Positions 37,905 to 48,154 of a DNA stretch of 64,000 bases are shown piece by piece. The stretch's first letter is position 1. Each line of letters opens with the position of its first letter. The stretch lies in the NCBI GenBank assembly GCA_964478625.1, contig CAYZJH010000006.1, positions 12,543 through 76,542 on the forward strand. Direction: 5' to 3'. Position numbers and translations under genes: made by a program. The stretch comes from an uncultured Desulfobacteraceae bacterium. Its GTDB lineage: Bacteria; Desulfobacterota; Desulfobacteria; Desulfobacterales; SKZT01. The notes under the pieces are model-generated. The model searched no databases, was not told the DNA's origin, and was given only the letters and a program-made list of their open reading frames with translations.

Positions 37905-38642
37905 TCACTTTAGCTCTGAATCACTTAGGGGTTCGGGTATGGCCCTAGACTCGGGGCGACGTTTTATCAACACGAGAACACGGGATTGATTCAGGAAAGG
38001 AAGTTGATATTTTCGGGTTGAAATACTCCAGTGGGAAACTGAAATCCTTTCATTTTCTCTCAGATTTTGAATTTCATCTATTTCTGTTTCAACCGGTTTT
38101 CCCTTATACGCCAGAAGGAAACCCTTTTCAGAGAGCAGAGGACCGGCCATCTCTACAAAAGATTTCAAATCTGTCAACGCCCTGCATACGATCACATCAA
38201 AAAGATTCTTAAATTCCGAATCGTGTGTCAAATTTTCGGCTCGGACATGGCGTGCGAACATATCAGGAAGTTTCATCAACCGAATCAGATGATTTAAAAA
38301 GGCAACCTTTTTTCTCGAAGCATCAATGAGAAACATCGGATTGGAGACAAGCATGATTTTCAGGGGGATTCCGGGGAAACCGGCACCTGAACCGATATCC
38401 AATATTCTTTTACCTGAACCGATTTCAGGAACTGCGGCAATGGAATCCAGAAAGTGTTTCACAGCGATTTCCATCGGGTCGGTAATGGCGGTCAGGTTTA
38501 CTTTCCGGTTCCAGACCAATAATTCCGAAGCATGAAGCGCAAAGAGTTCAGCCTGCTCTGAACTTATCCGGATTCCCAACAATTGAGCTCCGTCCCTAAT
38601 AGTTTTTTTCCACTCTAAAAAATCAATCTTTCCCACTTGCAC
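37905..38642 (-). CDS. rsmG: 16S rRNA (guanine527-N7)-methyltransferase
   Basis: 245 aa (GTG start, uncertain); WNRKVNLTAI, HFLDS and SAM loop DIGSGAGFPGIPLKI. Confidence 0.88.
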   Translation of the reverse strand: MQVGKIDFLEWKKTIRDGAQLLGIRISSEQAELFALHASELLVWNRKVNLTAITDPMEIAVKHFLDSIAAVPEIGSGKRILDIGSGAGFPGIPLKIMLVSNPMFLIDASRKKVAFLNHLIRLMKLPDMFARHVRAENLTHDSEFKNLFDVIVCRALTDLKSFVEMAGPLLSEKGFLLAYKGKPVETEIDEIQNLRENERISVSHWSISTRKYQLPFLNQSRVLVLIKRRPESRAIPEPLSDSELK

Positions 38643-40543
38643 TCTTTATCGCTTTCGGAATGATCCGGTGAATTTTCGAAATCGATCAGGAATTTGATTT
38701 CATTGTCTTTGATATTAAACACTTTTGCATCCGGATAATGGTCGTTAAATATTTTTTGCATGGCCTTATTTTCAGGAAGAACCGATGCTGAAAACCCTGT
38801 ATAATTATTTTCTTTGGCAATTTTTTCAAGCATTTTCAGCAGGTATGAGCCGATACCCAGATTCTGGTAATCTTCCCGAACCACAAAAGCCACCTCTGCC
38901 CTATTGTCATCTGCCTGAGCATAACTTCCGATAGCAATTATTTCCTTGCCCCCCAGTTTTTGCACCTTGCCGATAATGGACAGGTTTTTTTTATAATCCA
39001 TGGATGCCCAGTGTTTCTGAATGACTTCATGGGAAAAGAGTTTAACCCGGTGGAAAAACCGGGAATAAATGGTTTTTTCCTGAAGAGAGTAAAAAAAGTT
39101 TCTGTATTCGAATTCATCGGATGGAAACAGCGGCTGGAATTCCACCGTTTTTCCGCTTTGAAGCCTGAAGGTATCCTTATATTTTTCCACAAATATCAGA
39201 TCATGCTGAAGGGGGGGGAGCTGATCAGGGAATATATAACGATGTTTTTTAGCTTCGTTGACCAATTGCTCCCGGAATTTGGGATGGGCAATTTGGGCCA
39301 GTTCCATAACCCGCTGATAAATACTTTTGCCCTGCAATTCTGCGATGCCGTATTCGGTGACCACGAAATTGATATCCCCCCTCGTGGTCGCCGTCCCCGC
39401 TCCTTCACTCAGGTGGGAAACGATTCGGGAAATTTTACCATCCTGGGCTGTTGAGGGCAGAGCAATAATGGAAAAGCCGCCTTTGGACATGGCGCTTCCT
39501 CGAATAAAATCAACCTGATCACCGATACCGCTGTAAAACCGATAACCCACCGAGTCGGTGCAGACCTGGCCGGTTAAATCCACTTCAAGCGCACTGGAGA
39601 TAGAAATCAGGTGATCGTTTCTGGCAATAACCGTGGGATCGTTGACAAAATCGGAAGCCCTGAAATAGAATCCGGGATTGCCATTGATATAATGATAAAG
39701 TTTTTCAGATCCCATGCAAAGGGATGCAACGGTTCTTCCACGAAGATAATTTTTTCGTTTATTGGTAATGACTTTCTGGGTAAACAGCGGCAAAAAGGCA
39801 TCGGTAATGACCTGGGTATGAACCCCCAGATCTTTTTTGGCATCCAGATATTTCAAAATGGCATTGGGAAGATGTCCGAACCCGATCTGGATAGTGGCAC
39901 CGTCATCCACAAGTTGCGACACATACCGCCCTATTCTTTCGGAAATCTCATTTTCCTTTTTGATCGGCGTACTTTCCACCAGAGGCTCATCATGGTAAAC
40001 CAGATAATCGATATCATCCACATGTACAAAAGAATTTCCACCGGTTCTGGGCATCCTGGGATTTACCTGAGCAATGGTCAGTGCGGCATTTTCCATTCCC
40101 GAGCGGGTGATATCCACGGATACCCCAAGGCTGCAATATCCGAAACCATCAGGAGGACTCACCTGTATCAGAGCCACATCCAACCCGATACGATGGCTGG
40201 AAAAAAGTTTGGGAATTTGTGACAGGTATGTGGGGATGTAGTCGATCTTTCCTTCAAACGCCGCTTCCCGGATATCTCTGGAAATAAAAAACAACTTCAG
40301 AAGAAATCGTTTATGAAAATCCGGGTCGTCCACATAACGGGCCAGCGTAAAAGAAAGCATCTGATAGATCATGATATCCTGAAGCCCGGGATCTTTGACC
40401 ATGGCTCTTATTAAATGTTGCGGCTCACCGCATCCGGTACCGATAAACACACGGCTTCCCTGCCGGATTCCGGATATGGCCTCCTTTGCCGAAACTACCT
40501 TATCAGGATAAATTTCAGACAGTTTGTTTTTTTCACTGGTCAT
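38615..40543 (-). CDS. acetyl-CoA hydrolase/transferase-family domain fused to a C-terminal GNAT acetyltransferase domain
   Basis: 642 aa. The N-terminal ~430 aa is CoA-transferase-like (VSAKEAISGIRQGSRVFIGTGCGEPQHL...). The C-terminal GNAT motif A is FVVREDYQNLGIGSYLLKMLEKIA. Confidence 0.8.
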   Translation of the reverse strand: MTSEKNKLSEIYPDKVVSAKEAISGIRQGSRVFIGTGCGEPQHLIRAMVKDPGLQDIMIYQMLSFTLARYVDDPDFHKRFLLKLFFISRDIREAAFEGKIDYIPTYLSQIPKLFSSHRIGLDVALIQVSPPDGFGYCSLGVSVDITRSGMENAALTIAQVNPRMPRTGGNSFVHVDDIDYLVYHDEPLVESTPIKKENEISERIGRYVSQLVDDGATIQIGFGHLPNAILKYLDAKKDLGVHTQVITDAFLPLFTQKVITNKRKNYLRGRTVASLCMGSEKLYHYINGNPGFYFRASDFVNDPTVIARNDHLISISSALEVDLTGQVCTDSVGYRFYSGIGDQVDFIRGSAMSKGGFSIIALPSTAQDGKISRIVSHLSEGAGTATTRGDINFVVTEYGIAELQGKSIYQRVMELAQIAHPKFREQLVNEAKKHRYIFPDQLPPLQHDLIFVEKYKDTFRLQSGKTVEFQPLFPSDEFEYRNFFYSLQEKTIYSRFFHRVKLFSHEVIQKHWASMDYKKNLSIIGKVQKLGGKEIIAIGSYAQADDNRAEVAFVVREDYQNLGIGSYLLKMLEKIAKENNYTGFSASVLPENKAMQKIFNDHYPDAKVFNIKDNEIKFLIDFENSPDHSESDKECKWERLIF

Positions 40544-40581: not shown

Positions 40582-43500
40582 TTAAGGGGTCTTTTCCTGT
40601 TTTCTGATTCCATCGGTTGATTTTTCCTGTCCGAATTTGTTACGGATATATTGCATAAACGGTTTGATCACTCGAATGCGCTGCGGCGGTTTTTCCTTAA
40701 AAATCTCTTCAAGAGACAAATGGGGATCACTGATCGGGTTTCTCAGATATTTCCTTATGGCCTCCAGGCGATTTTTAATTTCTTTTTCAAACCGGACCGT
40801 TAACATATTTTTCATCTCCTGAATTTCTTCTTGCATATTTTCAGGGGATTTAACTCCCTGATAAGCCGATAACTTGTAATGAATCCTCATGCTGATCAAT
40901 TTCTGAAGGATTTTTTCATAGTCTTTATCGAGGCAGACCACCTCGGGAACCAGATCCCCAAAATGGGTCACGGCAAGAATATCCTTGTCCTGGGCCCAGT
41001 AATTGGCCAAAAACTCAGGTTCCAGGTCCTTGTAGTTTTGAAGCGGCATATACATGCGCCTGAGGTACATCAGAACCTTTTCGGCCTTTTTTTTATGCCC
41101 TCCGATAATGACCGAACCCCCTACTTCACCACTTTTAACCCCTTTAGTCCATGGAGCGCCCGTGATTCCGAAATCATTATAGATGGGAATATGGAGCAGT
41201 GCGGATAAGGTGTTCAAGGCCAGCGCATAACCGGCAGAGGGACCGCCGACATGATAGGAAGCCGATAACAACTGATGGTGAAGGGTGTATTTATCCAGAA
41301 ATTCTCCCAGTAGCTTGGGAATGCTCACTTTGTGATCCATGCTCTGAAAATAATTTTTGATCATGGTGAGCGCTTCTTTTGCCGACTGCTGGGTCATCTG
41401 GACCGCCATATCCAATTCCGCCGCACCCGGACTTGACGTGGACACAGCGCCGGTCACCAGTACTTTTTCAGGTGAAAGACTGTAAGTGAGGCTCGTGGCT
41501 ATCGGCAGCAACACACCGGTCACATCGTTTGCACCCACCCCGATGATAAAACCGACCTGAGGTTCCTGGCTGAGTTCCGCTTCGAGAAACTCATCCAGTT
41601 GAACTTTTCCCTTTCGTATGGGACTTCCGGAAATTTCGCTTCTGGCCGATAACAAATGTGAAGGCATCAACGGATAAGTTTCCATGTCATGGACTGTTGA
41701 AAACATATCGACAATCCGGTCAAAACGCTCCAGAAATTCGTTCGGGTCGTTTCGAACCTCATTTCTCAATGATTCCGGAGCATTAATGGCATCCAGGATT
41801 CCGATCAAGGTTTTAAAATTGAACTTGACAAAATTTTCTCGCTTCCCAACGGGCTGGTTCAGATAGGTTCTTGCACGCAAAAGGACTTCATACTCCGTGC
41901 TTCGAAGACTTCGCGCTTTTTCCACAAATGCGGTGTAATCGGCCGGAGTATTGCACACTCCTCTGGCTTTTTCAATGATTACCGGAACATCGATTCCCTC
42001 GGCCATGGGCACGCCATATAAACATTGGTCAACAATTCTTTCAATATCATCCTTGCTTAAATGCCCTGATACCTCGAGCACTTTGAGTCTTTTGGATCGA
42101 ATCAGGGCAGGGTCTAAAATGTCCAGCCGGTTGGTGGTCAGTGTGGTAAAAACCCTGTGCAAGGGAATTTCACCGTCAATAATGTTTAAAAATTTATTGG
42201 TCAGTTTGTCCGAAGGTGAACCTCCTGACTGACTTCGCTTCGGGGCCAGGGCATCCCCTTCATCAAAAAACACCACGGTCGGGGCAATCATCTTGGCAAT
42301 ATCATAAATTTTTTCGAGATTTTCCACCGCACCGTCAATGGGATTCACCGGATCCTGAAGCGCTACCGGATTGGTGGATATATCATGGACATCTTTGTTT
42401 TCACTCAACCACGCCCGTGCCAGAAAGGTTTTGCCTGAGCCCGGGGGTCCATTTAACACCACTCCTTTTTCTTCACTGACACCATAAAAAAGGCAGTTGT
42501 TGGCCATTTCCGAGAAAACATCCTTAATGTTGCCAATGTATTCATCCCATCTAACCTGACGATCCAGACGGCCGACCACCTTATCAAAAAGATCGCCGTA
42601 AGAATTTTTTGCCACCAGCTCGAAAGCCTTTCGCACAAGAAGGGAATCATCAAGGTATTCCGGTTTGAATTCGCTCTTGATTTCAATAATGGATCGAACC
42701 AACTTTCGAACATAAGCCGGCGTTATTTTTAGCGTTCTCTCCTGAAAAATCCGGTAAATTTTATCCACACCCGAATCAAGAAATTCGGGAGGAATACACG
42801 ATATGGATCTGTGGCATCGATGGTCCAATTTTTCTGCAACCCGTATATCACTCCGGTTTAATTCGATTCTGACAATTTCCTTGAGGTTATCGGGATTTTT
42901 CCAGTATTCTGAAATATCGACGATTTTTCCTTTTTCTACAAACCGTCTGTAAATCGTGTTATCAAAACGCTCCGGCTTGTCGGTAGTGGCGATAAGCAAA
43001 CAATCCCTTTTGCCGGTAATAATTTCATCGATGACAATATTGGCCGTATCAATCAGTGTGCGCTGTTGTCTTTCAACTCCACTGTCGCGGCCCTCTGATT
43101 TTCCGAACGCACTGTGGGCTTCTTCGATATGCCTTATGGTCGGTTTTCGGGAATCACCAAGGGCTTTTTTAAAATAATTTCCCGGCTCCCCTGCCAGGGC
43201 TGTCTGATAATCATTGGGGGTCACCATGGAATAGTCAACCATCAGACCGGGCTCCTCCAGTTCCGAAAGGTTCCTTCCGATTCTCTTCTTGAAGATTCTT
43301 CGTAACAAAGGAATTCTGGACATGATTTTGTAAAACCGGATTTTTTTGCGACGCTCCATCTCCATCGCCAAAGTAGGATCGATGTTTTCAATGGATTTCC
43401 AGAACGGTTCGGAGGCAAGCAGTTCTTCTTTTTTAAGTTTTAGATCTATTTCCGGAAGAACCCGGTCGCCGAAAATCACATTTTCGATAGCCTGGTTGAC

Positions 43501-44016
43501 CGTTGCGGTTTTTCCACTGCCTGAGGGGCCGACAACAAGAAGAAGCGCCGCTTTCGGGACACCGGGATCGGATATGTATTCCTTCCGAAGATGTGCTCTG
43601 TACACTTTTTCAAACAAGGCATCCAACTCCCATGGAACATGGACATCCGTGAGTTCATCGTCTAACAGGGAAAGCAGGTAGGCATAATCTTTGGCAGACA
43701 ACTCTTTTTCAAGAATCTTGCTCCAGGCCTCCTGAGGGTCTGTTTGACCCGATATTTCAAACCGCCTTTGCCAGTCGGTCAAAATATCCGGATCTTTTAG
43801 TATGGAGAAATTTTTTTCCGGTGATTCATAAAAAAATGAGAGGAAAGATTCCAGCAGGGTGTTGAGGATATCGGACCTGGGTTTATACTGGAGAAAACGG
43901 GCACGCATGAAAGCCTTGGTTTCATAAGGCCAAAGTGAAACCAGTTCTTCGATTTCCCGGATTCGCTTTTCAGAAAGCCTGATGTATTTGACCGCCTTTG
44001 TAAATCTTCGGGCCAT
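40582..44016 (-). CDS. 1144-aa double P-loop/AAA protein with a C-terminal Lon (S16)-like Ser-Lys protease domain
   Basis: First P-loop VVGPSGSGKT. Second module GPPGSGKT + VVFFDEGDAL + TTNRLDILDPALIRSKRL (classical AAA second region of homology). C-terminal YHVGGPSAGYALAL...IIGGHKKKAEK resembles the Lon catalytic Ser and Lys motifs. No hydrophobic TM segment seen. Confidence 0.8.
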   Translation of the reverse strand: MARRFTKAVKYIRLSEKRIREIEELVSLWPYETKAFMRARFLQYKPRSDILNTLLESFLSFFYESPEKNFSILKDPDILTDWQRRFEISGQTDPQEAWSKILEKELSAKDYAYLLSLLDDELTDVHVPWELDALFEKVYRAHLRKEYISDPGVPKAALLLVVGPSGSGKTATVNQAIENVIFGDRVLPEIDLKLKKEELLASEPFWKSIENIDPTLAMEMERRKKIRFYKIMSRIPLLRRIFKKRIGRNLSELEEPGLMVDYSMVTPNDYQTALAGEPGNYFKKALGDSRKPTIRHIEEAHSAFGKSEGRDSGVERQQRTLIDTANIVIDEIITGKRDCLLIATTDKPERFDNTIYRRFVEKGKIVDISEYWKNPDNLKEIVRIELNRSDIRVAEKLDHRCHRSISCIPPEFLDSGVDKIYRIFQERTLKITPAYVRKLVRSIIEIKSEFKPEYLDDSLLVRKAFELVAKNSYGDLFDKVVGRLDRQVRWDEYIGNIKDVFSEMANNCLFYGVSEEKGVVLNGPPGSGKTFLARAWLSENKDVHDISTNPVALQDPVNPIDGAVENLEKIYDIAKMIAPTVVFFDEGDALAPKRSQSGGSPSDKLTNKFLNIIDGEIPLHRVFTTLTTNRLDILDPALIRSKRLKVLEVSGHLSKDDIERIVDQCLYGVPMAEGIDVPVIIEKARGVCNTPADYTAFVEKARSLRSTEYEVLLRARTYLNQPVGKRENFVKFNFKTLIGILDAINAPESLRNEVRNDPNEFLERFDRIVDMFSTVHDMETYPLMPSHLLSARSEISGSPIRKGKVQLDEFLEAELSQEPQVGFIIGVGANDVTGVLLPIATSLTYSLSPEKVLVTGAVSTSSPGAAELDMAVQMTQQSAKEALTMIKNYFQSMDHKVSIPKLLGEFLDKYTLHHQLLSASYHVGGPSAGYALALNTLSALLHIPIYNDFGITGAPWTKGVKSGEVGGSVIIGGHKKKAEKVLMYLRRMYMPLQNYKDLEPEFLANYWAQDKDILAVTHFGDLVPEVVCLDKDYEKILQKLISMRIHYKLSAYQGVKSPENMQEEIQEMKNMLTVRFEKEIKNRLEAIRKYLRNPISDPHLSLEEIFKEKPPQRIRVIKPFMQYIRNKFGQEKSTDGIRKQEKTP

Positions 44017-44979
44017 TTACTTCTCCTTTACACTTTCTTTCTGGGAAATCCCTTTAGCCGAGGCATCCGGTACCGGTATCGTCAGGGCCGGACCCGGTCC
44101 CGCGGTGTTTTGAATCACCACCGTGCTTTGTGCCGACTGATTTTTCTCATAAGCCGTGGCCCATTTTTGCTGTGCCAAAAACTGGAACAAAGCGGCATCC
44201 GTTGCCCCATCAGGTCTTCCCACACTTTTTTGCAATGCCTGAATACTGTCCACATATGCCGCATACAGTTTTCGGATCCGACTTGCCTCCTGGTCTGCTG
44301 CATAGTTCTCCGCCTCGGCAATCAATTCTCTTCGCTTTTTTTCTTCAGTGGCCTCCACCAGTTTGTCTCCAAACCGGGTCTCCTTGAGCACAAAACTGAC
44401 CACTTCAATCCCGTATTTTTGTTCGAGGGTCGGACCTCCCTCGTTGATGGGGCGCGATTTCAGGGCCCTGAAAATTTCTTCCTTAATATCTTCTCTCAGA
44501 CTGACCAGTTCTCCCACTTTTTTGGCCTGAAGAATATCCTTGACAATACCGTCGTAATCTCCCTGCAGAAGATTCATGGGATCAAGGTTTTCAATGGCCC
44601 AGATTTTCAAATCATTAATTCTGTAAGTTAGCACCGCCGAAGTCCACAGGGCTACATTTTCCTGAGAAATAATCCGGTTGGGTTCTGTTTGCCCGCTTAA
44701 AAACATCGCCTGGTTCATCAGGGGAACTTCCTGTTCAATCCGGGTAAAAAAGGGCAACCGCATATGCCATCCCTGTTCGGTAACCGGCACACGTTTTCCT
44801 CCAAATTTCTCCAGCACGATGGCATAATTCATTTTGACTTTGTAAATGGTCTTGGTGGCATATACCATGGCTACCAAACCATAAACGATTCCCACAACCA
44901 GGGCCAAGGCGAAAATCCTTCGCAAAAAAGTCTTCACAAAGGCTCGTCTGAATATTTTCCTCGAAAGCTCTTCCGTCAT
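44017..44979 (-). CDS. SPFH/band-7 (stomatin/prohibitin/HflC-like) membrane protein
   Basis: 320 aa; N-terminal TM FALALVVGIVYGLVAMVYA; SPFH core (YAIVLEKFGGKRV...LTYRI...); coiled-coil-like region EEKKRRELIAEAENYAADQEASRIRK. Its stop codon directly abuts the ATG of the AAA/Lon gene. Confidence 0.85.
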   Translation of the reverse strand: MTEELSRKIFRRAFVKTFLRRIFALALVVGIVYGLVAMVYATKTIYKVKMNYAIVLEKFGGKRVPVTEQGWHMRLPFFTRIEQEVPLMNQAMFLSGQTEPNRIISQENVALWTSAVLTYRINDLKIWAIENLDPMNLLQGDYDGIVKDILQAKKVGELVSLREDIKEEIFRALKSRPINEGGPTLEQKYGIEVVSFVLKETRFGDKLVEATEEKKRRELIAEAENYAADQEASRIRKLYAAYVDSIQALQKSVGRPDGATDAALFQFLAQQKWATAYEKNQSAQSTVVIQNTAGPGPALTIPVPDASAKGISQKESVKEK

Positions 44980-45722
44980 GACATTGAACTCCTTTCAAAT
45001 CCCTTGCGAAACCAATCGGCAGCCATTCGGAGAAACTCTTCCTGATGGGCCATGTGGGTCATCCGATGGTCACCATTTTTCTGAATCACCAGTTTTTTGG
45101 GTTTCCCGACCAATTGATAGATTTTAAAAGCCTCTGAAACCGGAACCACTTCATCATTATTTCCATGAATCACCAGTATATCTTTAATATAAGAAAGGTG
45201 TTTTTCAATGTCGAAAGACAGGTTGTTGATTAATTCCGTCAGTTGGATCACCGGGGTCTCATGTCTCTGCATGGAATCCAACAGGCAGTTGCTGTTTACC
45301 GGTGCGGCAAAAGTGACCAGTGCTGCAGGTCGAATTATGGCTGAAACCCGGCATGCCACCGCTCCGCCAAGACTGCTTCCAAAAAAGGCAATACTATTTC
45401 CAGTATCACTTCTTTTCCTCAGGGTTTCACACGCCATGACAAGATCCCGACACCGGCCTTCAAAAGAAATCAACTCTCTTTCTCCACCTTCACTCCGGCC
45501 GCACCCTCTGTGATCAAAGCGGAAAAAAGCCATGCCCGACAAATTGCAGGCATGAGCCAATGCCAGTTGTTTGGGTGATTCCTGTGTGGCAAACAATCCG
45601 TGGGAGCCGATAATGACAGGCGGATTTATTCCTGAAGGAAGATGAAGATGACCTTCGAGTCGATAACCATCGCAAAAAAAACAGAGTTTTTTACAAACAA
45701 GATTCACTGTTAATTCCGCCAT
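44976..45722 (-). CDS. alpha/beta-fold serine hydrolase
   Basis: 248 aa; nucleophile elbow FGSSLGG; C-terminal GDHRMTH (catalytic His candidate); ATGA overlap with the SPFH gene. Confidence 0.8.
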   Translation of the reverse strand: MAELTVNLVCKKLCFFCDGYRLEGHLHLPSGINPPVIIGSHGLFATQESPKQLALAHACNLSGMAFFRFDHRGCGRSEGGERELISFEGRCRDLVMACETLRKRSDTGNSIAFFGSSLGGAVACRVSAIIRPAALVTFAAPVNSNCLLDSMQRHETPVIQLTELINNLSFDIEKHLSYIKDILVIHGNNDEVVPVSEAFKIYQLVGKPKKLVIQKNGDHRMTHMAHQEEFLRMAADWFRKGFERSSMS

Positions 45723-45847: not shown

Positions 45848-47239
45848 ATGTCACTGAAAAAAGGAAATGTATATGAGGTAAATATTTCGGATCTGGCATT
45901 CGGAGGCAAAGGCTTTGCCAAAATCGATGGGTTTGCCGTTTTCGTAGACCAGGCTGCTCCCGGAGATGTCGTAATGGCTCGGGTGATCCGGAAGAAAAAA
46001 AATTACGCCGAAGCCCGGATCGTTGAGATGATATCGCCTTCGCCGCTGAGAATCGATGCTCCCTGTCCCTACAGCGGTGTCTGCGGAGGCTGCAAATGGC
46101 AATATTTGCCTTATAAATTACAACTGGAATACAAGCAACGGCACGTGAAAGAGACTCTGGAACATATCGGTGATATCCGCAACACCCCGATCAATCCGAC
46201 CTTGCCCTCTCCAGACATTTTTGAGTATCGGAACAAAATGGAATTTTCCTGTTCGGATCGAAAATGGCTGATGCCTGATCAGATGACCGGTGAAGAGGTC
46301 GATACCGGTTTTGCAATCGGGCTTCATGTGCCCGGTACTTTTTATAAAGTGCTTGATATTCGGGCATGCCTGCTCCAGCCAGACCAGGGAAACCAAATAC
46401 TGGATGATGTTCGCTGTTTTATCGGAGATTCCGGATTACCGGTCTATGGATTGAAAAGCCATGAAGGTTTCTGGCGTTTTTTGATGCTTCGTCACTCCGT
46501 ATCGGAAGATCAATGGATGGTCAATATGATCACCGCCTCTGAACAACATGATGCAATTTCTTCGCTGGCCGGCATTCTTATGGAAAAATATCCGAATATC
46601 GTGTCGGTGGTCAATAATGTGACAGCCCGAAAAGCGGGTATCGCCGTGGGAGAATATGAGATTCCCATCGCAGGAAAAGCATCTATAAAAGATGCCATTG
46701 GGCCATTTGTTTTTGAAATTTCCGCCAACTCGTTTTTTCAGACCAACAGCCGGGCCGCAAAGATTCTCTATGACACGGTGGCCAGGTATGCGCAATTGAC
46801 CGGAAAAGAGACGGTCCTGGATCTATACAGCGGAACCGGAACGATTCCCATTTATCTTTCACAACAGGCCTCCCGGATAGTAGGAATGGAAATTGTCGAC
46901 AGCGCCATCTCAGATGCTGAAAACAACTGTCGTTTAAATCAGGTGGACAATTGCCGCTTTATCAGCGGTGATATCCGGACGTCTTTGACCCGGATTGATT
47001 TCAAACCCCAGGTGATGATCATTGATCCACCCCGAGATGGCATGCACAAGGATGTTGTCAAACAGGTCCTGGATATGGGACCTGAGCGGATCGTTTATGT
47101 TTCGTGCAATCCGGCAACCCTGGCCAGAGATCTGGCTCTTATGAAAGAATTTTACCATGTGACCGAGGTTCAGCCTGTGGATATGTTTCCGCATACCTTT
47201 CATATCGAATCGGTGGCTTGCCTCAGAAAGGGTTCTTAA
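45848..47239 (+). CDS. rlmD: 23S rRNA (uracil-C5)-methyltransferase, RlmD/RumA family
   Basis: 463 aa; TRAM N-terminus; Fe-S cysteines CPYSGVCGGCKWQ; SAM motif LDLYSGTGT; catalytic VSCNPAT. Confidence 0.9.
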   Translation: MSLKKGNVYEVNISDLAFGGKGFAKIDGFAVFVDQAAPGDVVMARVIRKKKNYAEARIVEMISPSPLRIDAPCPYSGVCGGCKWQYLPYKLQLEYKQRHVKETLEHIGDIRNTPINPTLPSPDIFEYRNKMEFSCSDRKWLMPDQMTGEEVDTGFAIGLHVPGTFYKVLDIRACLLQPDQGNQILDDVRCFIGDSGLPVYGLKSHEGFWRFLMLRHSVSEDQWMVNMITASEQHDAISSLAGILMEKYPNIVSVVNNVTARKAGIAVGEYEIPIAGKASIKDAIGPFVFEISANSFFQTNSRAAKILYDTVARYAQLTGKETVLDLYSGTGTIPIYLSQQASRIVGMEIVDSAISDAENNCRLNQVDNCRFISGDIRTSLTRIDFKPQVMIIDPPRDGMHKDVVKQVLDMGPERIVYVSCNPATLARDLALMKEFYHVTEVQPVDMFPHTFHIESVACLRKGS

Positions 47240-47242
47240 ATT

Positions 47243-48154
47243 ATGCCGACCGCCGCCTGCGGAATCAACTGCGATGTGTGCAAATTAAAGGTCATGGGGA
47301 TCTGTTCCACTTGCGGGGATGGACTGAGCCACGAAGCCAGGTTAAAAATCGAAGCTCAAATCAGGTTGCTGGGGCAACCCTGCCCTATCCTGGCCTGTGC
47401 CGAAATGAATCACGTGGGATACTGCCTGAGAGATTGCCACCATTTTCCCTGTGACAATTTCAATATGGGATCTTATCCCTTTAGCCAAGGATTTTTGAGC
47501 ATGCAGCAACGAAGGCGACAACAAAAACCGCCGGCAAGAAATCCACAGGGAAACCCTTTTACCGTGCCGGAACAATTCTGGGATGAAATCTGTCGTAAAG
47601 ACCTGAAGGTCCTTTCGGGAATTTCTCTTTGCCGGCAAGATCCTGAAGGCGCTTTACTAATCCCTCATCTTGGAAAAAATTTTCTTTTGGATATCAACAA
47701 ACGCTGTATTTTTCAGTCAGATGACGGACAGGAGCGGGAAAAGACCGATTATCCGCTTTTGGAACTGATGATTCTGGTTTACCTGTTGAATGTGAAAGGC
47801 GATCCGGTTCAAAATCATATGATCAGTGTATCTGAACTCAGGGATGCCCATTTTTTTCAGGGACCTCACGCACTGAAAATCAATCCGCTTCTGGAACGGT
47901 TTGGAAACGACCTTCAGGGATTCAAAAACGCTGCTCAACGGCTGGCGGGCCAGAGCAAGGACCTGGCAGATATGGCTTTTAAGTTTTATCCCTTTCCCAA
48001 GATTCCCTTATACTACCTTTTGTGGGAAGGCGATGATGAATTCGGCCCTGATCTTAAAATTCTTTTTGATCGATCTATCGAAGCGCACCTTTCGGCCGAT
48101 GCCATTTGGGGCGTAGTCAACCTTGTTTCCGACGCTCTTTTAATGGCGGGCTGA
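47243..48154 (+). CDS. Cys-rich DUF3795-like N-terminus + DUF3786-like protein
   Basis: 303 aa; ACGINCDVCKL..GICSTCG...CPILACAEMNHVGYCLRDCHHFPCDNF. The C-terminal ~200 aa resembles DUF3786. Starts 4 nt after the rlmD stop. Confidence 0.6.
   Translation: MPTAACGINCDVCKLKVMGICSTCGDGLSHEARLKIEAQIRLLGQPCPILACAEMNHVGYCLRDCHHFPCDNFNMGSYPFSQGFLSMQQRRRQQKPPARNPQGNPFTVPEQFWDEICRKDLKVLSGISLCRQDPEGALLIPHLGKNFLLDINKRCIFQSDDGQEREKTDYPLLELMILVYLLNVKGDPVQNHMISVSELRDAHFFQGPHALKINPLLERFGNDLQGFKNAAQRLAGQSKDLADMAFKFYPFPKIPLYYLLWEGDDEFGPDLKILFDRSIEAHLSADAIWGVVNLVSDALLMAG

What the first reader, a model, noticed from the sequence alone, without database searches (positions are those of the whole stretch)
40582..45722. 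Translationally coupled alpha/beta-hydrolase, SPFH and double-AAA/Lon-protease operon: candidate SPFH-associated protease system of a new type
Seen in sequence: three minus-strand genes are packed without spacers. There is an ATGA overlap at 44976-44979, and the SPFH TAA at 44017-19 directly abuts the ATG at 44014-16. The products are a serine alpha/beta hydrolase (GSSLGG), a single-TM SPFH/band-7 protein, and a soluble 1144-aa protein carrying AAA modules and a Lon-type Ser-Lys protease domain.

Established knowledge: SPFH proteins HflK/C form a membrane cage around the AAA protease FtsH, and stomatin operons pair with the NfeD serine protease.

Inference: here the SPFH scaffold may recruit a soluble AAA-Lon chimera, and perhaps the second hydrolase, to the membrane. 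That would be an FtsH/HflKC analogue built from different parts. I know of no characterised example.
Basis: partly seen in the sequence, partly recalled or inferred. Interest (0 to 1): 0.75.

Follow-up and report, generated by a model that had tools for sequence, protein, structure and literature searches.

The report
SPFH scaffold paired with Cdc48-Lon protease
A membrane-anchored SPFH (stomatin/HflK-like) gene is always found overlapping or abutting a gene for an undescribed ATP-dependent protease made of two Cdc48-type AAA rings fused to a Lon-type protease domain, and because the pair is kept together in sulfate-reducing bacteria and in distant archaeal relatives, it is probably a new form of the known partnership between SPFH scaffolds and proteases.

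Summary
Three minus-strand ORFs (248, 320 and 1144 aa) are joined by an ATGA overlap and a TAA/ATG abutment. Profile searches confirm an alpha/beta hydrolase, a Band_7/SPFH protein with one N-terminal hydrophobic segment, and a soluble protein with AAA and Lon_C domains.

Three refinements:
- **AAA type.** The ATPase part is a tandem classic-clade (Cdc48/p97-like) D1-D2, not a Lon-type AAA+ module. The Lon domain keeps an invariant Ser927-Lys977 dyad.
- **Conserved unit.** The unit is the SPFH + AAA-Lon pair. SPFH lies directly upstream in 77/77 usable bacterial loci and in 5/8 distant, mostly archaeal contexts. The hydrolase is present in only 30/75 loci.
- **Open points.** Neither AAA ring has an aromatic pore loop in this clade. 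The positive-inside rule places the SPFH domain outside the cytoplasm, so a cage around the protease is doubtful.

Best reading: a dedicated two-gene membrane proteolysis module, analogous to HflK/C-FtsH or stomatin-NfeD. No description was found in the searched literature or in the PADLOC and NCBIfam libraries. I rate it a new variant of a known kind, with moderately high interest. The physical interaction and the substrates are untested.

The parts
44017..44979 (-). SPFH/Band_7 membrane protein (320 aa); core component 1
   Evidence: Pfam Band_7 4.1e-18, residues 47-232. The closest solved relatives are weak: QmcA E 0.0035 and stomatin E 0.003 with a profile. Orthologues are 74-88% identical across Desulfobacterales. 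The gene lies directly upstream of the AAA-Lon gene in 77/77 bacterial loci.
44917..44979 (-). SPFH N-terminal basic amphipathic tail (residues 1-21, MTEELSRKIFRRAFVKTFLRR)
   Evidence: The 15 residues before the hydrophobic segment carry 5-7 K/R in all bacterial orthologues, and R12, A13, K16 and R20 are invariant. The positive-inside rule predicts this tail is cytoplasmic. Its role as a docking or initiation site is inference.
44854..44916 (-). SPFH hydrophobic membrane segment (residues 22-42)
   Evidence: Kyte-Doolittle 19-residue mean of 2.53. It is the only such segment in the three proteins.
44065..44373 (-). SPFH coiled-coil helix (203-253) and conserved C-terminal helix/strand (262-305, including 'TVVIQNT' and 'ALTIPVP')
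   Evidence: Secondary structure from the AF2 model, which is low confidence (pLDDT 46). The alignment shows strong conservation. This layout is typical of oligomerising SPFH proteins (established knowledge); oligomerisation here is inferred.
40582..44016 (-). AAA-Lon protein (1144 aa): N-domain, D1, D2, helical linker, Lon protease domain, helical tail; core component 2
   Evidence: Pfam AAA and Lon_C. PDB phmmer best hits are p97/VCP/Cdc48 at 1e-38. The AF2 model has pLDDT 74.8. Foldseek aligns more than 700 columns to p97/Cdc48 protomers at E 5e-19. There is no transmembrane segment.
43582..44016 (-). N-terminal domain (residues 1-145), no known family
   Evidence: No Pfam hit at E<=1. AF2 shows strand 8-14, helices 16-28 and 31-43, then a helical bundle. 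The domain is conserved from bacteria to the distant clades.
42577..43569 (-). D1 AAA domain (about 150-480): Walker A GPSGSGKT (43507-43530), Walker B IRHIEE (43120-43137), pore loop TALAGEPG (43180-43203), basic helical insertion 183-258 (43243-43470)
   Evidence: G163, G168, K169, T172 and E299 are invariant across all clades. A weak spastin alignment covers the Walker B to SRH region. D1 aligns to p97 D1 in the Foldseek result. Pore loop 1 is L-A in this clade and W-Y or Y-Y in most distant clades.
41857..42504 (-). D2 AAA domain (about 505-720): Walker A GPPGSGKT (42427-42450), Walker B VVFFDE (42259-42276), SRH TTNRLDILDPALIRSKRL (42085-42138), non-aromatic pore loop LQDPVNPIDG (42331-42360)
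   Evidence: Pfam AAA residues 519-645. NCBIfam CDC48, PAN and FtsH hits cover 507-703. K529, E586, N629, R640 and R643 are invariant.
40942..41580 (-). Lon-type S16 protease domain (about 813-1025) with catalytic Ser927 (41236-41238) and Lys977 (41086-41088)
   Evidence: Pfam Lon_C is above its gathering score. NCBIfam LonB and Lon models match only this region. phmmer to solved Lon protease domains aligns GPSAG and IGG...K. GGPSAG and K977 are invariant in all clades.
40585..40941 (-). C-terminal helical extension (1026-1144), no known family
   Evidence: AF2 shows long helices at 1031-1052 and 1061-1092. No significant Pfam hit. E1077, I1080 and R1083 are invariant.
44976..45722 (-). Alpha/beta hydrolase (248 aa), a clade-specific accessory gene rather than part of the conserved core
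   Evidence: Pfam Hydrolase_4 1.3e-16. The candidate triad is GSSLGG Ser, HGNNDE Asp and GDH His. The nearest solved relatives are generic esterases. An orthologue lies upstream in only 30/75 bacterial loci, and none was seen in the distant contexts.
44023..44028 (-). Shine-Dalgarno AAGGAG for the AAA-Lon gene, lying inside the end of the SPFH gene
44989..44994 (-). Shine-Dalgarno AAGGAG for the SPFH gene, lying inside the end of the hydrolase gene

Best explanation
The real unit is a two-gene module.

**Gene 1** encodes a membrane-anchored SPFH protein. It has a basic N-tail, one hydrophobic segment, an SPFH domain, a coiled coil and a conserved C-terminal strand. By analogy with other SPFH proteins it would assemble into a ring or cage that marks out a patch of membrane.

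**Gene 2** encodes a soluble cytoplasmic ATP-dependent protease of a type not yet described. It has a novel N-domain, two Cdc48/p97-like classic AAA domains (D1 and D2) and a LonB-like Ser-Lys protease domain. It presumably forms a stacked hexamer.

**Shown here:** the domain composition, the intact ATPase and protease catalytic residues, and the obligate, translationally coupled gene pairing across bacteria and archaea.

**Inferred:** the two proteins act together at the cytoplasmic membrane. The SPFH assembly would recruit or regulate the protease, most plausibly through its roughly 21-residue cytoplasmic basic tail if the SPFH domain faces outward. The protease would then remove or process membrane-associated proteins. 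This would be a functional analogue of HflK/C-FtsH in which the protease has no membrane anchor of its own. The alpha/beta hydrolase in this window is an optional, lineage-specific addition.
For: - **Domains:**
- **Catalytic residues:** the Walker A Lys of both rings, the Walker B Glu residues E299 and E586, sensor-1 N629, arginine fingers R640 and R643, and Lon S927 and K977 are all invariant down to 33% identity.
- **Adjacency in bacteria:** an SPFH orthologue lies directly upstream on the same strand in 77/77 loci with room. The junction is within -29 to +17 nt in 73/75 and overlapping in 47. The reciprocal look-up from an SPFH orthologue finds the large gene 2 nt downstream.
- **Flanks differ while the pair persists:**
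- **Adjacency in distant relatives:** in clades only 33-40% identical, an SPFH orthologue of the same subfamily is directly upstream in L115, L118, L120, L123 and L124. P0124 is named Candidatus Woesearchaeota, and several contexts carry archaeal marker genes.
- **Alternative membrane partner:** two clades without SPFH instead have a conserved downstream pair that includes a putative 2-TM protein. This fits a need for a membrane partner.
- **Localisation:** the SPFH protein has one hydrophobic segment and the AAA-Lon protein has none.
- **Precedent (established knowledge):** HflK/C-FtsH, prohibitin with the m-AAA protease, and stomatin-NfeD all pair SPFH scaffolds with proteases. The operon literature is reviewed in PMC2636767.
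Against: - There is no direct evidence of a physical interaction, and no complex prediction was possible with the tools available.
- The positive-inside rule puts the SPFH domain on the extracytoplasmic side, away from the ATP-dependent protease. That leaves only a short tail for contact. Against this, the nearest solved relatives, weakly, are stomatin and QmcA, whose SPFH domains face the cytoplasm according to my recollection of the literature. Topology is therefore unresolved.
- In this bacterial clade pore loop 1 of D1 is L-A and that of D2 is 'NPID', with no aromatic residue. Processive unfolding may be weak or absent.
- The Lon domain is only partly confident in the AF2 model, and its Pfam score is modest at 26 bits.
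- Three of the eight distant contexts lack an adjacent SPFH gene.
- Hexamer formation is assumed from the family, not shown.
Confidence: 0.5

Rival explanations
1. The SPFH protein is the substrate rather than the scaffold. The AAA-Lon protein engages the SPFH protein, either by its roughly 21-residue cytoplasmic N-tail or by its conserved C-terminal tail, and then extracts, trims or degrades it. This would control assembly or turnover of the SPFH microdomain, as the NfeD protease does when it cleaves stomatin in Pyrococcus.
For: - The gene-pair conservation is the same as for the main model and does not separate partner from substrate.
- The precedent is an operon-encoded Ser-Lys protease, 1510-N, that cleaves its stomatin partner (PMC3795559, listed).
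- The SPFH N-tail and the C-terminal 'ALTLPxP' region are conserved.
- Cdc48-type ATPases are known as membrane-protein extractors (established knowledge).
Against: - A 128-kDa double-ring ATPase-protease is a costly way to process one partner. NfeD needs no ATPase.
- Both proteins are under very strong purifying selection, at 63-91% and 74-88% identity across an order. That fits a stoichiometric complex at least as well as an enzyme-substrate pair.
- No cleavage data exist.
Confidence: 0.25
2. The large protein is mainly a remodelling or segregase ATPase, or a site-specific processing protease, and not a processive degradation machine. It would work with the SPFH assembly in membrane remodelling or stress repair, like PspA/ESCRT-type systems that use classic AAA ATPases.
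For: - There is no aromatic pore-loop-1 residue in either ring in the bacterial clade.
- In the Desulfosarcina clade the pair sits beside a second SPFH module (Band_7_1 with a zinc ribbon), and in D. ovata it sits near PspA, vWA and DjlA/TerB genes.
- Associations of Band-7 and classic AAA proteins with PspA are described in PMC11237479.
- Some Lon-like proteases lack unfolding activity (PMC3391209, listed).
Against: - The Lon Ser-Lys dyad and both ATPase sites are invariant across bacterial and distant clades. This argues that proteolysis coupled to ATP hydrolysis is the selected function.
- Most distant relatives keep a canonical W-Y pore loop in D1.
- The PspA neighbourhood is seen in only one clade.
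Confidence: 0.15
3. The pair, or the trio, is an anti-phage or abortive-infection defence system with a membrane sensor and a protease effector.
For: The only hits are weak AAA-domain matches to IetA, TRIP13 and mad8 models in PADLOC and to IteA in NCBIfam. Lon-domain effectors do occur in BREX and CRISPR accessory systems (papers listed).
Against: - The SPFH protein and the hydrolase have no PADLOC hit, and the AAA hits are generic.
- The family is highly conserved (63-91% identity) and the flanks are housekeeping genes such as tRNA/rRNA methyltransferases, RsgA and metabolic enzymes. This is unlike patchy, fast-evolving defence islands.
Confidence: 0.05
4. The adjacency is inherited synteny with no functional link. 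The three genes act independently.
For: Most bacterial loci come from one order, so shared ancestry inflates the 77/77 count. The promoter and terminator scans are uninformative.
Against: - The flanking genes are reshuffled while the pair and its overlapping junction persist.
- The pairing recurs in relatives at 33-40% identity in another domain of life, in wholly different neighbourhoods.
Confidence: 0.03

Closest known systems
HflK/HflC-FtsH (bacteria) and prohibitin with the m-AAA protease (mitochondria)
   Same: A membrane-anchored SPFH scaffold is partnered with a classic-clade AAA ATPase fused to a protease. The D2 domain here scores against FtsH and PAN models. If the positive-inside prediction is right, the SPFH protein has the same N-in/C-out orientation as HflK/C.
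   Different: - The protease domain is a Ser-Lys Lon (S16) type, not the M41 zinc metalloprotease.
- There are two AAA rings instead of one.
- The protease has no transmembrane anchor or periplasmic domain, so it cannot sit inside an extracytoplasmic cage as FtsH does.
- There is a single SPFH gene rather than an HflK/HflC heteropair.
- The two genes are translationally coupled here.
Stomatin-NfeD operons (for example Pyrococcus PH1511/PH1510, E. coli QmcA/YbbJ)
   Same: An SPFH gene sits in a conserved two-gene operon with a Ser-Lys dyad serine protease. The nearest solved SPFH sequences to this one are stomatin and QmcA, though only weakly.
   Different: The partner is not NfeD: no ClpP-fold or OB-fold NfeD domain was found. 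Instead it is a 1144-aa ATP-dependent machine, and it is soluble rather than membrane-embedded.
Cdc48/p97/VAT type II AAA ATPases
   Same: The protein has tandem D1-D2 classic AAA domains. These give the best sequence and fold matches. The D2 SRH has two arginine fingers, and the D1 pore loop 'LAGE' resembles p97 D1 (the comparison with p97 is from my memory of its sequence).
   Different: - There is no CDC48_N double-psi-barrel N-domain.
- D2 lacks the aromatic pore loop.
- D1 carries a 75-residue basic helical insertion.
- A protease is fused covalently, whereas Cdc48/VAT hand substrates to a separate 20S proteasome.
Lon proteases (LonA, archaeal LonB, LonC)
   Same: The C-terminal S16 domain has the GPSAG Ser and the IGG-x3-K Lys. 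The closest solved relatives are LonB-type protease domains.
   Different: The Lon-specific AAA+ module (HCLR clade) is absent. It is replaced by two classic-clade AAA domains. There is no LonB membrane insertion and no LonA N-domain.

Membership tests
Lon protease family (MEROPS S16) | Lon_C proteolytic domain with a Ser-Lys catalytic dyad | tested here: met
   Pfam Lon_C scores 26.4 bits against a cut-off of 21.1. GPSAG and IGG...K align to solved Lon domains. S927 and K977 are invariant in all clades.
Lon protease family (MEROPS S16) | A single Lon-type AAA+ module (HCLR clade) directly N-terminal to the protease | tested here: not met
   NCBIfam Lon and LonB models match only residues 808-1040. 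The ATPase region matches CDC48, PAN and FtsH models and p97 structures instead.
Lon protease family (MEROPS S16) | LonB-type membrane anchor inserted in the ATPase | tested here: not met
   No hydrophobic window reaches transmembrane level. The maximum is 1.66, within Lon-domain beta-strands.
Cdc48/p97/VAT type II AAA | Tandem classic AAA domains D1-D2 with Walker A/B and an SRH | tested here: met
   Pfam AAA matches in 2 stretches. phmmer finds 2 stretches against p97 at 1e-38. Foldseek gives 700+ aligned columns. Motifs are located. D1 is strongly divergent.
Cdc48/p97/VAT type II AAA | CDC48_N (double-psi barrel plus beta-clam) N-domain | tested here: not met
   No CDC48_N Pfam hit. The AF2 N-domain is one strand plus helices.
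Cdc48/p97/VAT type II AAA | Aromatic pore loop 1 in the D2 ring | tested here: not met
   The D2 loop is 'LQDPVNPIDG', with no aromatic residue in any clade.
HflK/C-FtsH-type SPFH-AAA protease supercomplex | Membrane-anchored SPFH protein with a coiled-coil/oligomerisation region | tested here: met
   Band_7 4.1e-18. The hydrophobic segment is at residues 22-42. A long helix at 203-253 and a conserved C-terminal strand are present, from a low-confidence model and the alignment.
HflK/C-FtsH-type SPFH-AAA protease supercomplex | Membrane-embedded AAA protease with an M41 metalloprotease domain | tested here: not met
   There is no transmembrane segment and no Peptidase_M41 hit. The protease is Lon_C.
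HflK/C-FtsH-type SPFH-AAA protease supercomplex | Physical complex of the SPFH cage with the protease | not testable with these tools
   Only genomic coupling could be assessed. No multimer prediction tool was available.
Stomatin-NfeD operon | NfeD partner (ClpP-fold protease and/or OB-fold domain, membrane-embedded) | tested here: not met
   None of the three proteins gives an NfeD Pfam hit.
Stomatin-NfeD operon | Stomatin-type (SPFH1) subfamily membership of the SPFH protein | tested here: inconclusive
   The best solved relatives are stomatin (E 0.003) and QmcA (E 0.0035), both weak. NCBIfam gives only a weak HflC match, 20 bits against a cut-off of 134.
Known anti-phage defence systems (PADLOC) | Component proteins matching a defence-system model set | tested here: not met
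   Only generic AAA-domain hits to IetA, TRIP13 and mad8. The SPFH protein and the hydrolase give no hits.

The most novel reading that the evidence does not exclude
This is a previously unrecognised class of energy-dependent protease: a Cdc48-type double AAA ring fused to a LonB-type protease. It works only together with a dedicated SPFH scaffold, or in some archaeal lineages with an alternative small membrane protein. Because it has no anchor of its own, it is tethered to the membrane in trans, and it carries out FtsH-like surveillance of membrane proteins. The module has been exchanged between DPANN-type archaea and Desulfobacterota.
Probability: 0.35. Interest if true: 0.8.

Novelty: new variant of a known kind. 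Interest (0 to 1): 0.66.

Why it matters
SPFH proteins (stomatin, prohibitin, flotillin, HflK/C) occur throughout life, yet how they work is still debated. The clearest mechanistic handle has been their partnership with proteases. This module would add a third, independent solution alongside FtsH/m-AAA and NfeD. Its partner protease combines two well-studied building blocks, a Cdc48-like unfoldase and a Lon peptidase, in an arrangement I did not find described.

The pairing is obligate and translationally coupled, and it is conserved between bacteria and archaea. That makes it a clean genetic and structural system for asking what an SPFH scaffold actually does for a protease: recruitment, gating, substrate selection, or serving as the substrate itself. 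It also bears on how AAA proteases evolved by domain shuffling.

The family is rare. Only about ten full-length clusters at 50% identity appear among 1.84 billion representative proteins. It is nevertheless widespread and strongly conserved in Desulfobacterales, including Desulfosarcina species represented by named isolate genomes (D. ovata, D. variabilis), which may be usable for experiments.

Tried and rejected
1. **Metagenome scan.** The scan with the distant-clade alignment was largely wasted.
2. **Structure of the SPFH protein.** The AF2 model was too poor to use for fold search (pLDDT 46). The alignment was too shallow.
3. **AFDB50 fold search.** The library was unavailable.
4. **N-terminus as ribbon-helix-helix.** Residues 8-43 have a strand-helix-helix pattern that resembles this motif. 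Pfam at E<=1 and a profile search of PDB sequences gave no support, so it stays an unverified lead.
5. **D1 alone against the PDB.** This gave only marginal hits. D1 is assigned from conserved motifs and the Foldseek superposition of the whole protein.
6. **Promoter and terminator scans.** Counts were no higher than in shuffled sequence, so operon boundaries cannot be set this way. The downstream acetyl-CoA hydrolase/GNAT gene lies 38 nt away on the same strand and may be co-transcribed, but it was not found at this position in the other loci examined in detail, nor among the recurrent neighbours.
7. **Defence-system reading.** Rejected on the PADLOC result and the genomic context.
8. **Trio as the functional unit.** Rejected on 30/75 occurrence.
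9. **Literature.** Nine full-text searches found no description of the pair or of the AAA-AAA-Lon architecture. The library is incomplete, so this is weak evidence of novelty.

Full report
**1. Observation**

ORF listing and direct reading of the minus strand confirm three consecutive genes: 44976..45722 (248 aa), 44017..44979 (320 aa) and 40582..44016 (1144 aa). The hydrolase TGA overlaps the SPFH ATG, giving ATGA at 44979-44976. The SPFH TAA at 44019-44017 is followed directly by the ATG at 44016-44014. AAGGAG ribosome-binding motifs lie 9 and 6 nt upstream of the second and third start codons, inside the preceding genes.

**2. Domain content**

- **Hydrolase.** Pfam gives Hydrolase_4/Abhydrolase (1.3e-16) for the 248-aa protein. 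It has a plausible Ser/Asp/His triad in GSSLGG, HGNNDE and GDH. Its solved relatives are only generic esterases.
- **SPFH protein.** Pfam gives Band_7 (4.1e-18) for the 320-aa protein. It has one strongly hydrophobic segment at residues 22-42, preceded by a very basic 21-residue tail. After the SPFH domain come a long helix and a conserved C-terminal helix and strand. This is the usual layout of oligomerising SPFH proteins.
- **Large protein.** Pfam gives AAA (1.9e-28, two stretches) plus Lon_C (26.4 bits, cut-off 21.1) for the 1144-aa protein. It has no transmembrane segment and no signal-like N-terminus.

**3. What kind of AAA-Lon protein this is**

The ATPase part is not the AAA+ module of Lon.

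- NCBIfam Lon and LonB models match only residues about 808-1040. Residues 507-703 match CDC48, PAN and FtsH models.
- The best solved sequences are p97/VCP/Cdc48 and archaeal VAT, at about 1e-38 with two matched stretches.
- An AF2 model (pLDDT 74.8) superposes on p97/Cdc48 protomers over more than 700 columns (Foldseek E 5e-19).

The architecture is as follows:

| Region | Residues | Notes |
|---|---|---|
| N-domain | 1-145 | No known family |
| D1 | about 150-480 | Very divergent; 75-residue basic helical insertion at 183-258 |
| D2 | about 505-720 | Canonical classic AAA with SRH |
| Helical linker | 721-812 | |
| Lon S16 domain | 813-1025 | |
| Helical tail | 1026-1144 | |

An alignment spanning 33-79% identity shows these residues are invariant:

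- both Walker A lysines;
- the Walker B glutamates E299 (D1, motif IRHIEE) and E586 (D2, VVFFDE);
- sensor-1 N629 and arginine fingers R640 and R643;
- the Lon dyad Ser927 (GGPSAG) and Lys977 (IIGG-x3-K), which align with the catalytic motifs of solved LonB-type domains.

Both ATPase sites and the protease site are therefore under selection.

One caveat concerns the pore loops. In this bacterial clade, pore loop 1 of D1 is T-A-L-A-G-E, which resembles p97 D1. In most distant relatives it is T-M-W-Y-G-E. The D2 loop (LQDPVNPIDG) has no aromatic residue in any clade. Strong, processive substrate threading cannot be taken for granted in the Desulfobacterales proteins.

**4. How rare and how conserved the family is**

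- A scan without a word index of 1.84 billion representative proteins found only about ten full-length clusters at 50% identity. Beyond them come generic Cdc48-like ATPases.
- The close family is abundant in Desulfobacterales and related Thermodesulfobacteriota, at 63-91% identity. Members include Desulfosarcina ovata, D. variabilis and the Olavius symbionts, and are annotated only as 'AAA family ATPase'.
- In the species-level genome collection, 340 stretches encode a relative. I could inspect only the best 80.
- The SPFH partner is even more conserved, at 74-88% identity.

**5. Gene-neighbourhood test**

*Bacterial loci.* In 83 bacterial loci, every one with enough upstream sequence (77/77) has an orthologue of this SPFH protein directly upstream on the same strand. 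The six exceptions are cut off by the contig end. The junction lies within -29 to +17 nt in 73/75 and overlaps in 47. A reverse look-up from an SPFH orthologue finds the large gene 2 nt downstream. The flanks differ between lineages, and other recurrent neighbours are clade-specific. The pair therefore persists through rearrangement.

*Hydrolase.* It occurs upstream in only 30/75 loci, with gaps up to 386 nt, and was not seen beside the pair in the distant contexts. It is an accessory gene of one sub-lineage, not part of the conserved unit.

*Distant relatives.* These are 33-40% identical and come largely from archaea. One is named Candidatus Woesearchaeota. Several contigs carry archaeal markers: Cbf5, Trm112, ribosomal S3Ae, Arc_Cdc45, RpoL and a TFIIS-type zinc ribbon.

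- Among eight such contexts, five have an SPFH orthologue of the same subfamily immediately upstream: L115, L118, L120, L123 and L124.
- In two of these five the precomputed Pfam annotation missed the SPFH gene. A family-specific HMM detected it at E 2e-20 and 1e-11.
- Two clades (L116/L117 and L122) lack SPFH. They share instead two conserved downstream genes, one of them a putative 2-TM protein.
- One context (L119) has neither.

Conservation of the pair across domains of life, in unrelated neighbourhoods, is strong evidence of a functional link.

**6. Topology problem**

- The 15 residues before the hydrophobic segment carry 5-7 K/R in bacterial orthologues and 3-5 in archaeal ones. The 15 residues after it carry 3-4 in bacterial orthologues and 0-1 in archaeal ones.
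- The positive-inside rule therefore predicts N-in/C-out. The SPFH domain would be extracytoplasmic, as in HflK/C.
- The ATP-dependent protease must be cytoplasmic. If the prediction holds, only the conserved basic amphipathic N-tail (RRAFVKTFLRR) is available for contact.
- Against this, the nearest solved SPFH relatives are, weakly, stomatin and QmcA. From my knowledge of the literature, their SPFH domains face the cytoplasm.
- Also from memory, the simple charge rule mispredicts E. coli HflC.

I treat topology as unresolved. It is the most important open point.

**7. Most likely mechanism**

*Shown.* This is a translationally coupled, evolutionarily obligate pair. One gene encodes a membrane SPFH protein. 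The other encodes a soluble protein with two intact classic AAA sites and an intact Lon Ser-Lys site.

*Inferred.* The large protein forms a stacked hexamer with D1, D2 and Lon rings. The SPFH oligomer localises or regulates it at the inner face of the membrane, where it removes or processes membrane-associated proteins. This would be a functional analogue of HflK/C-FtsH in which the membrane anchor is supplied in trans. I put this at about 0.5.

*Rivals.*

- The SPFH protein is itself the substrate, as in stomatin-NfeD (about 0.25).
- The machine is a remodelling or processing enzyme rather than a degrader, given the non-aromatic pore loops and, in one clade, the PspA and Band_7_1 neighbours (about 0.15).
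- Defence-system and accidental-synteny readings are poorly supported.

**8. Comparison with known systems**

The module works like the SPFH-protease partnerships HflK/C-FtsH, prohibitin with the m-AAA protease, and stomatin-NfeD. It is a member of none of them.

- It has no M41 domain and no transmembrane anchor, so it is not FtsH.
- It has no NfeD domain.
- The protease belongs to family S16 by its catalytic domain, but it fails the Lon definition on the ATPase module.
- The ATPase is Cdc48-like, but it lacks the Cdc48 N-domain and the aromatic D2 pore loop.

Neither PADLOC nor NCBIfam has a specific model for any component. The 2009 classification of prokaryotic SPFH operons lists no such partner (PMC2636767). 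Nine literature searches found nothing. The literature collection is incomplete.

**9. Verdict**

The core idea of an SPFH-associated AAA-Lon protease system survives a strong comparative test, and the evidence now extends it to archaea. Three points change: the unit is a pair rather than a trio, the ATPase is Cdc48-type, and the proposed geometry is doubtful. I rate it a new variant of a known kind, with interest 0.66.

Noticed in passing
window 43180-43203 (D1 pore loop) and 42331-42360 (D2 pore loop): In the Desulfobacterales clade pore loop 1 of D1 is 'TALAGE', with no aromatic residue. Most distant, mostly archaeal relatives have 'TMWYGE' or 'TMYYGE'. The D2 loop 'LQDPVNPIDG' has no aromatic residue in any clade. 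This is the reverse of Cdc48, where D2 carries the aromatic loop, and it suggests reduced threading ability in the bacterial proteins.
   Followed up: partly
window 43888-43995 (AAA-Lon residues 8-43): The extreme N-terminus is predicted as strand-helix-helix. Its sequence pattern (xxVxYIRLSEKRIREIEELV...) is reminiscent of ribbon-helix-helix domains. Pfam and a profile search against PDB sequences gave no significant support.
   Followed up: partly
window 43243-43470 (AAA-Lon residues 183-258): D1 carries a 75-residue helical insertion between helix alpha1 and strand beta2. It is rich in basic and hydrophobic residues (RRKKIRFYKIMSRIPLLRRIFKKRIGRNL) and is conserved in character in the distant clades. 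It could be a membrane- or partner-binding element.
   Followed up: no
L001 4181-6551 (Desulfosarcina ovata), recurring in 16-17 loci: In one sub-clade a second SPFH-type module lies directly upstream of the pair. It consists of a Band_7_1 protein with zinc ribbons (about 380 aa) and a 410-421-aa protein with no Pfam hit. In D. ovata, PspA, vWA and DjlA/TerB genes are also within 8 kb.
   Followed up: partly
L116 6715-8833, L117 4741-6859, L122 6386-8465: The distant clades that lack an adjacent SPFH gene share two conserved genes immediately downstream of the AAA-Lon gene. One is a 229-250-aa protein with two moderately hydrophobic segments. The other is a 449-454-aa protein with no Pfam hit. 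The proteins from different clades match each other at E 1e-40 and 1e-45. They may be an alternative membrane partner.
   Followed up: partly
window 38615-40543 (-): An acetyl-CoA hydrolase/transferase fused to a C-terminal GNAT acetyltransferase domain (642 aa) starts 38 nt downstream of the AAA-Lon stop on the same strand. It may be co-transcribed. It was not found downstream of the pair in the loci examined in detail (L001-L003), nor among the recurrent neighbours across loci.
   Followed up: partly
window 45848-48154 (+): A TRAM-domain RNA uracil-5-methyltransferase (463 aa) and a DUF3786 protein with a weak DUF3795 match (303 aa) are transcribed divergently from the hydrolase gene. The methyltransferase recurs as a neighbour in 19 loci, and both genes are present in the 79%-identity locus L002.
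   Followed up: partly
L122 9460-12376: The contig carrying the distant homologue P0127 has two adjacent Pup_ligase-family (PafA/Dop-like) genes about 3 kb downstream. The taxonomic origin of this contig is unclear, so not all distant clades can be assumed to be archaeal.
   Followed up: no
L118 5533-8854: Here the AAA-Lon gene appears split into 341-aa and 755-aa ORFs. The break coincides with a run of X/N in the assembly, so it is an assembly gap and not a true split gene.
   Followed up: yes
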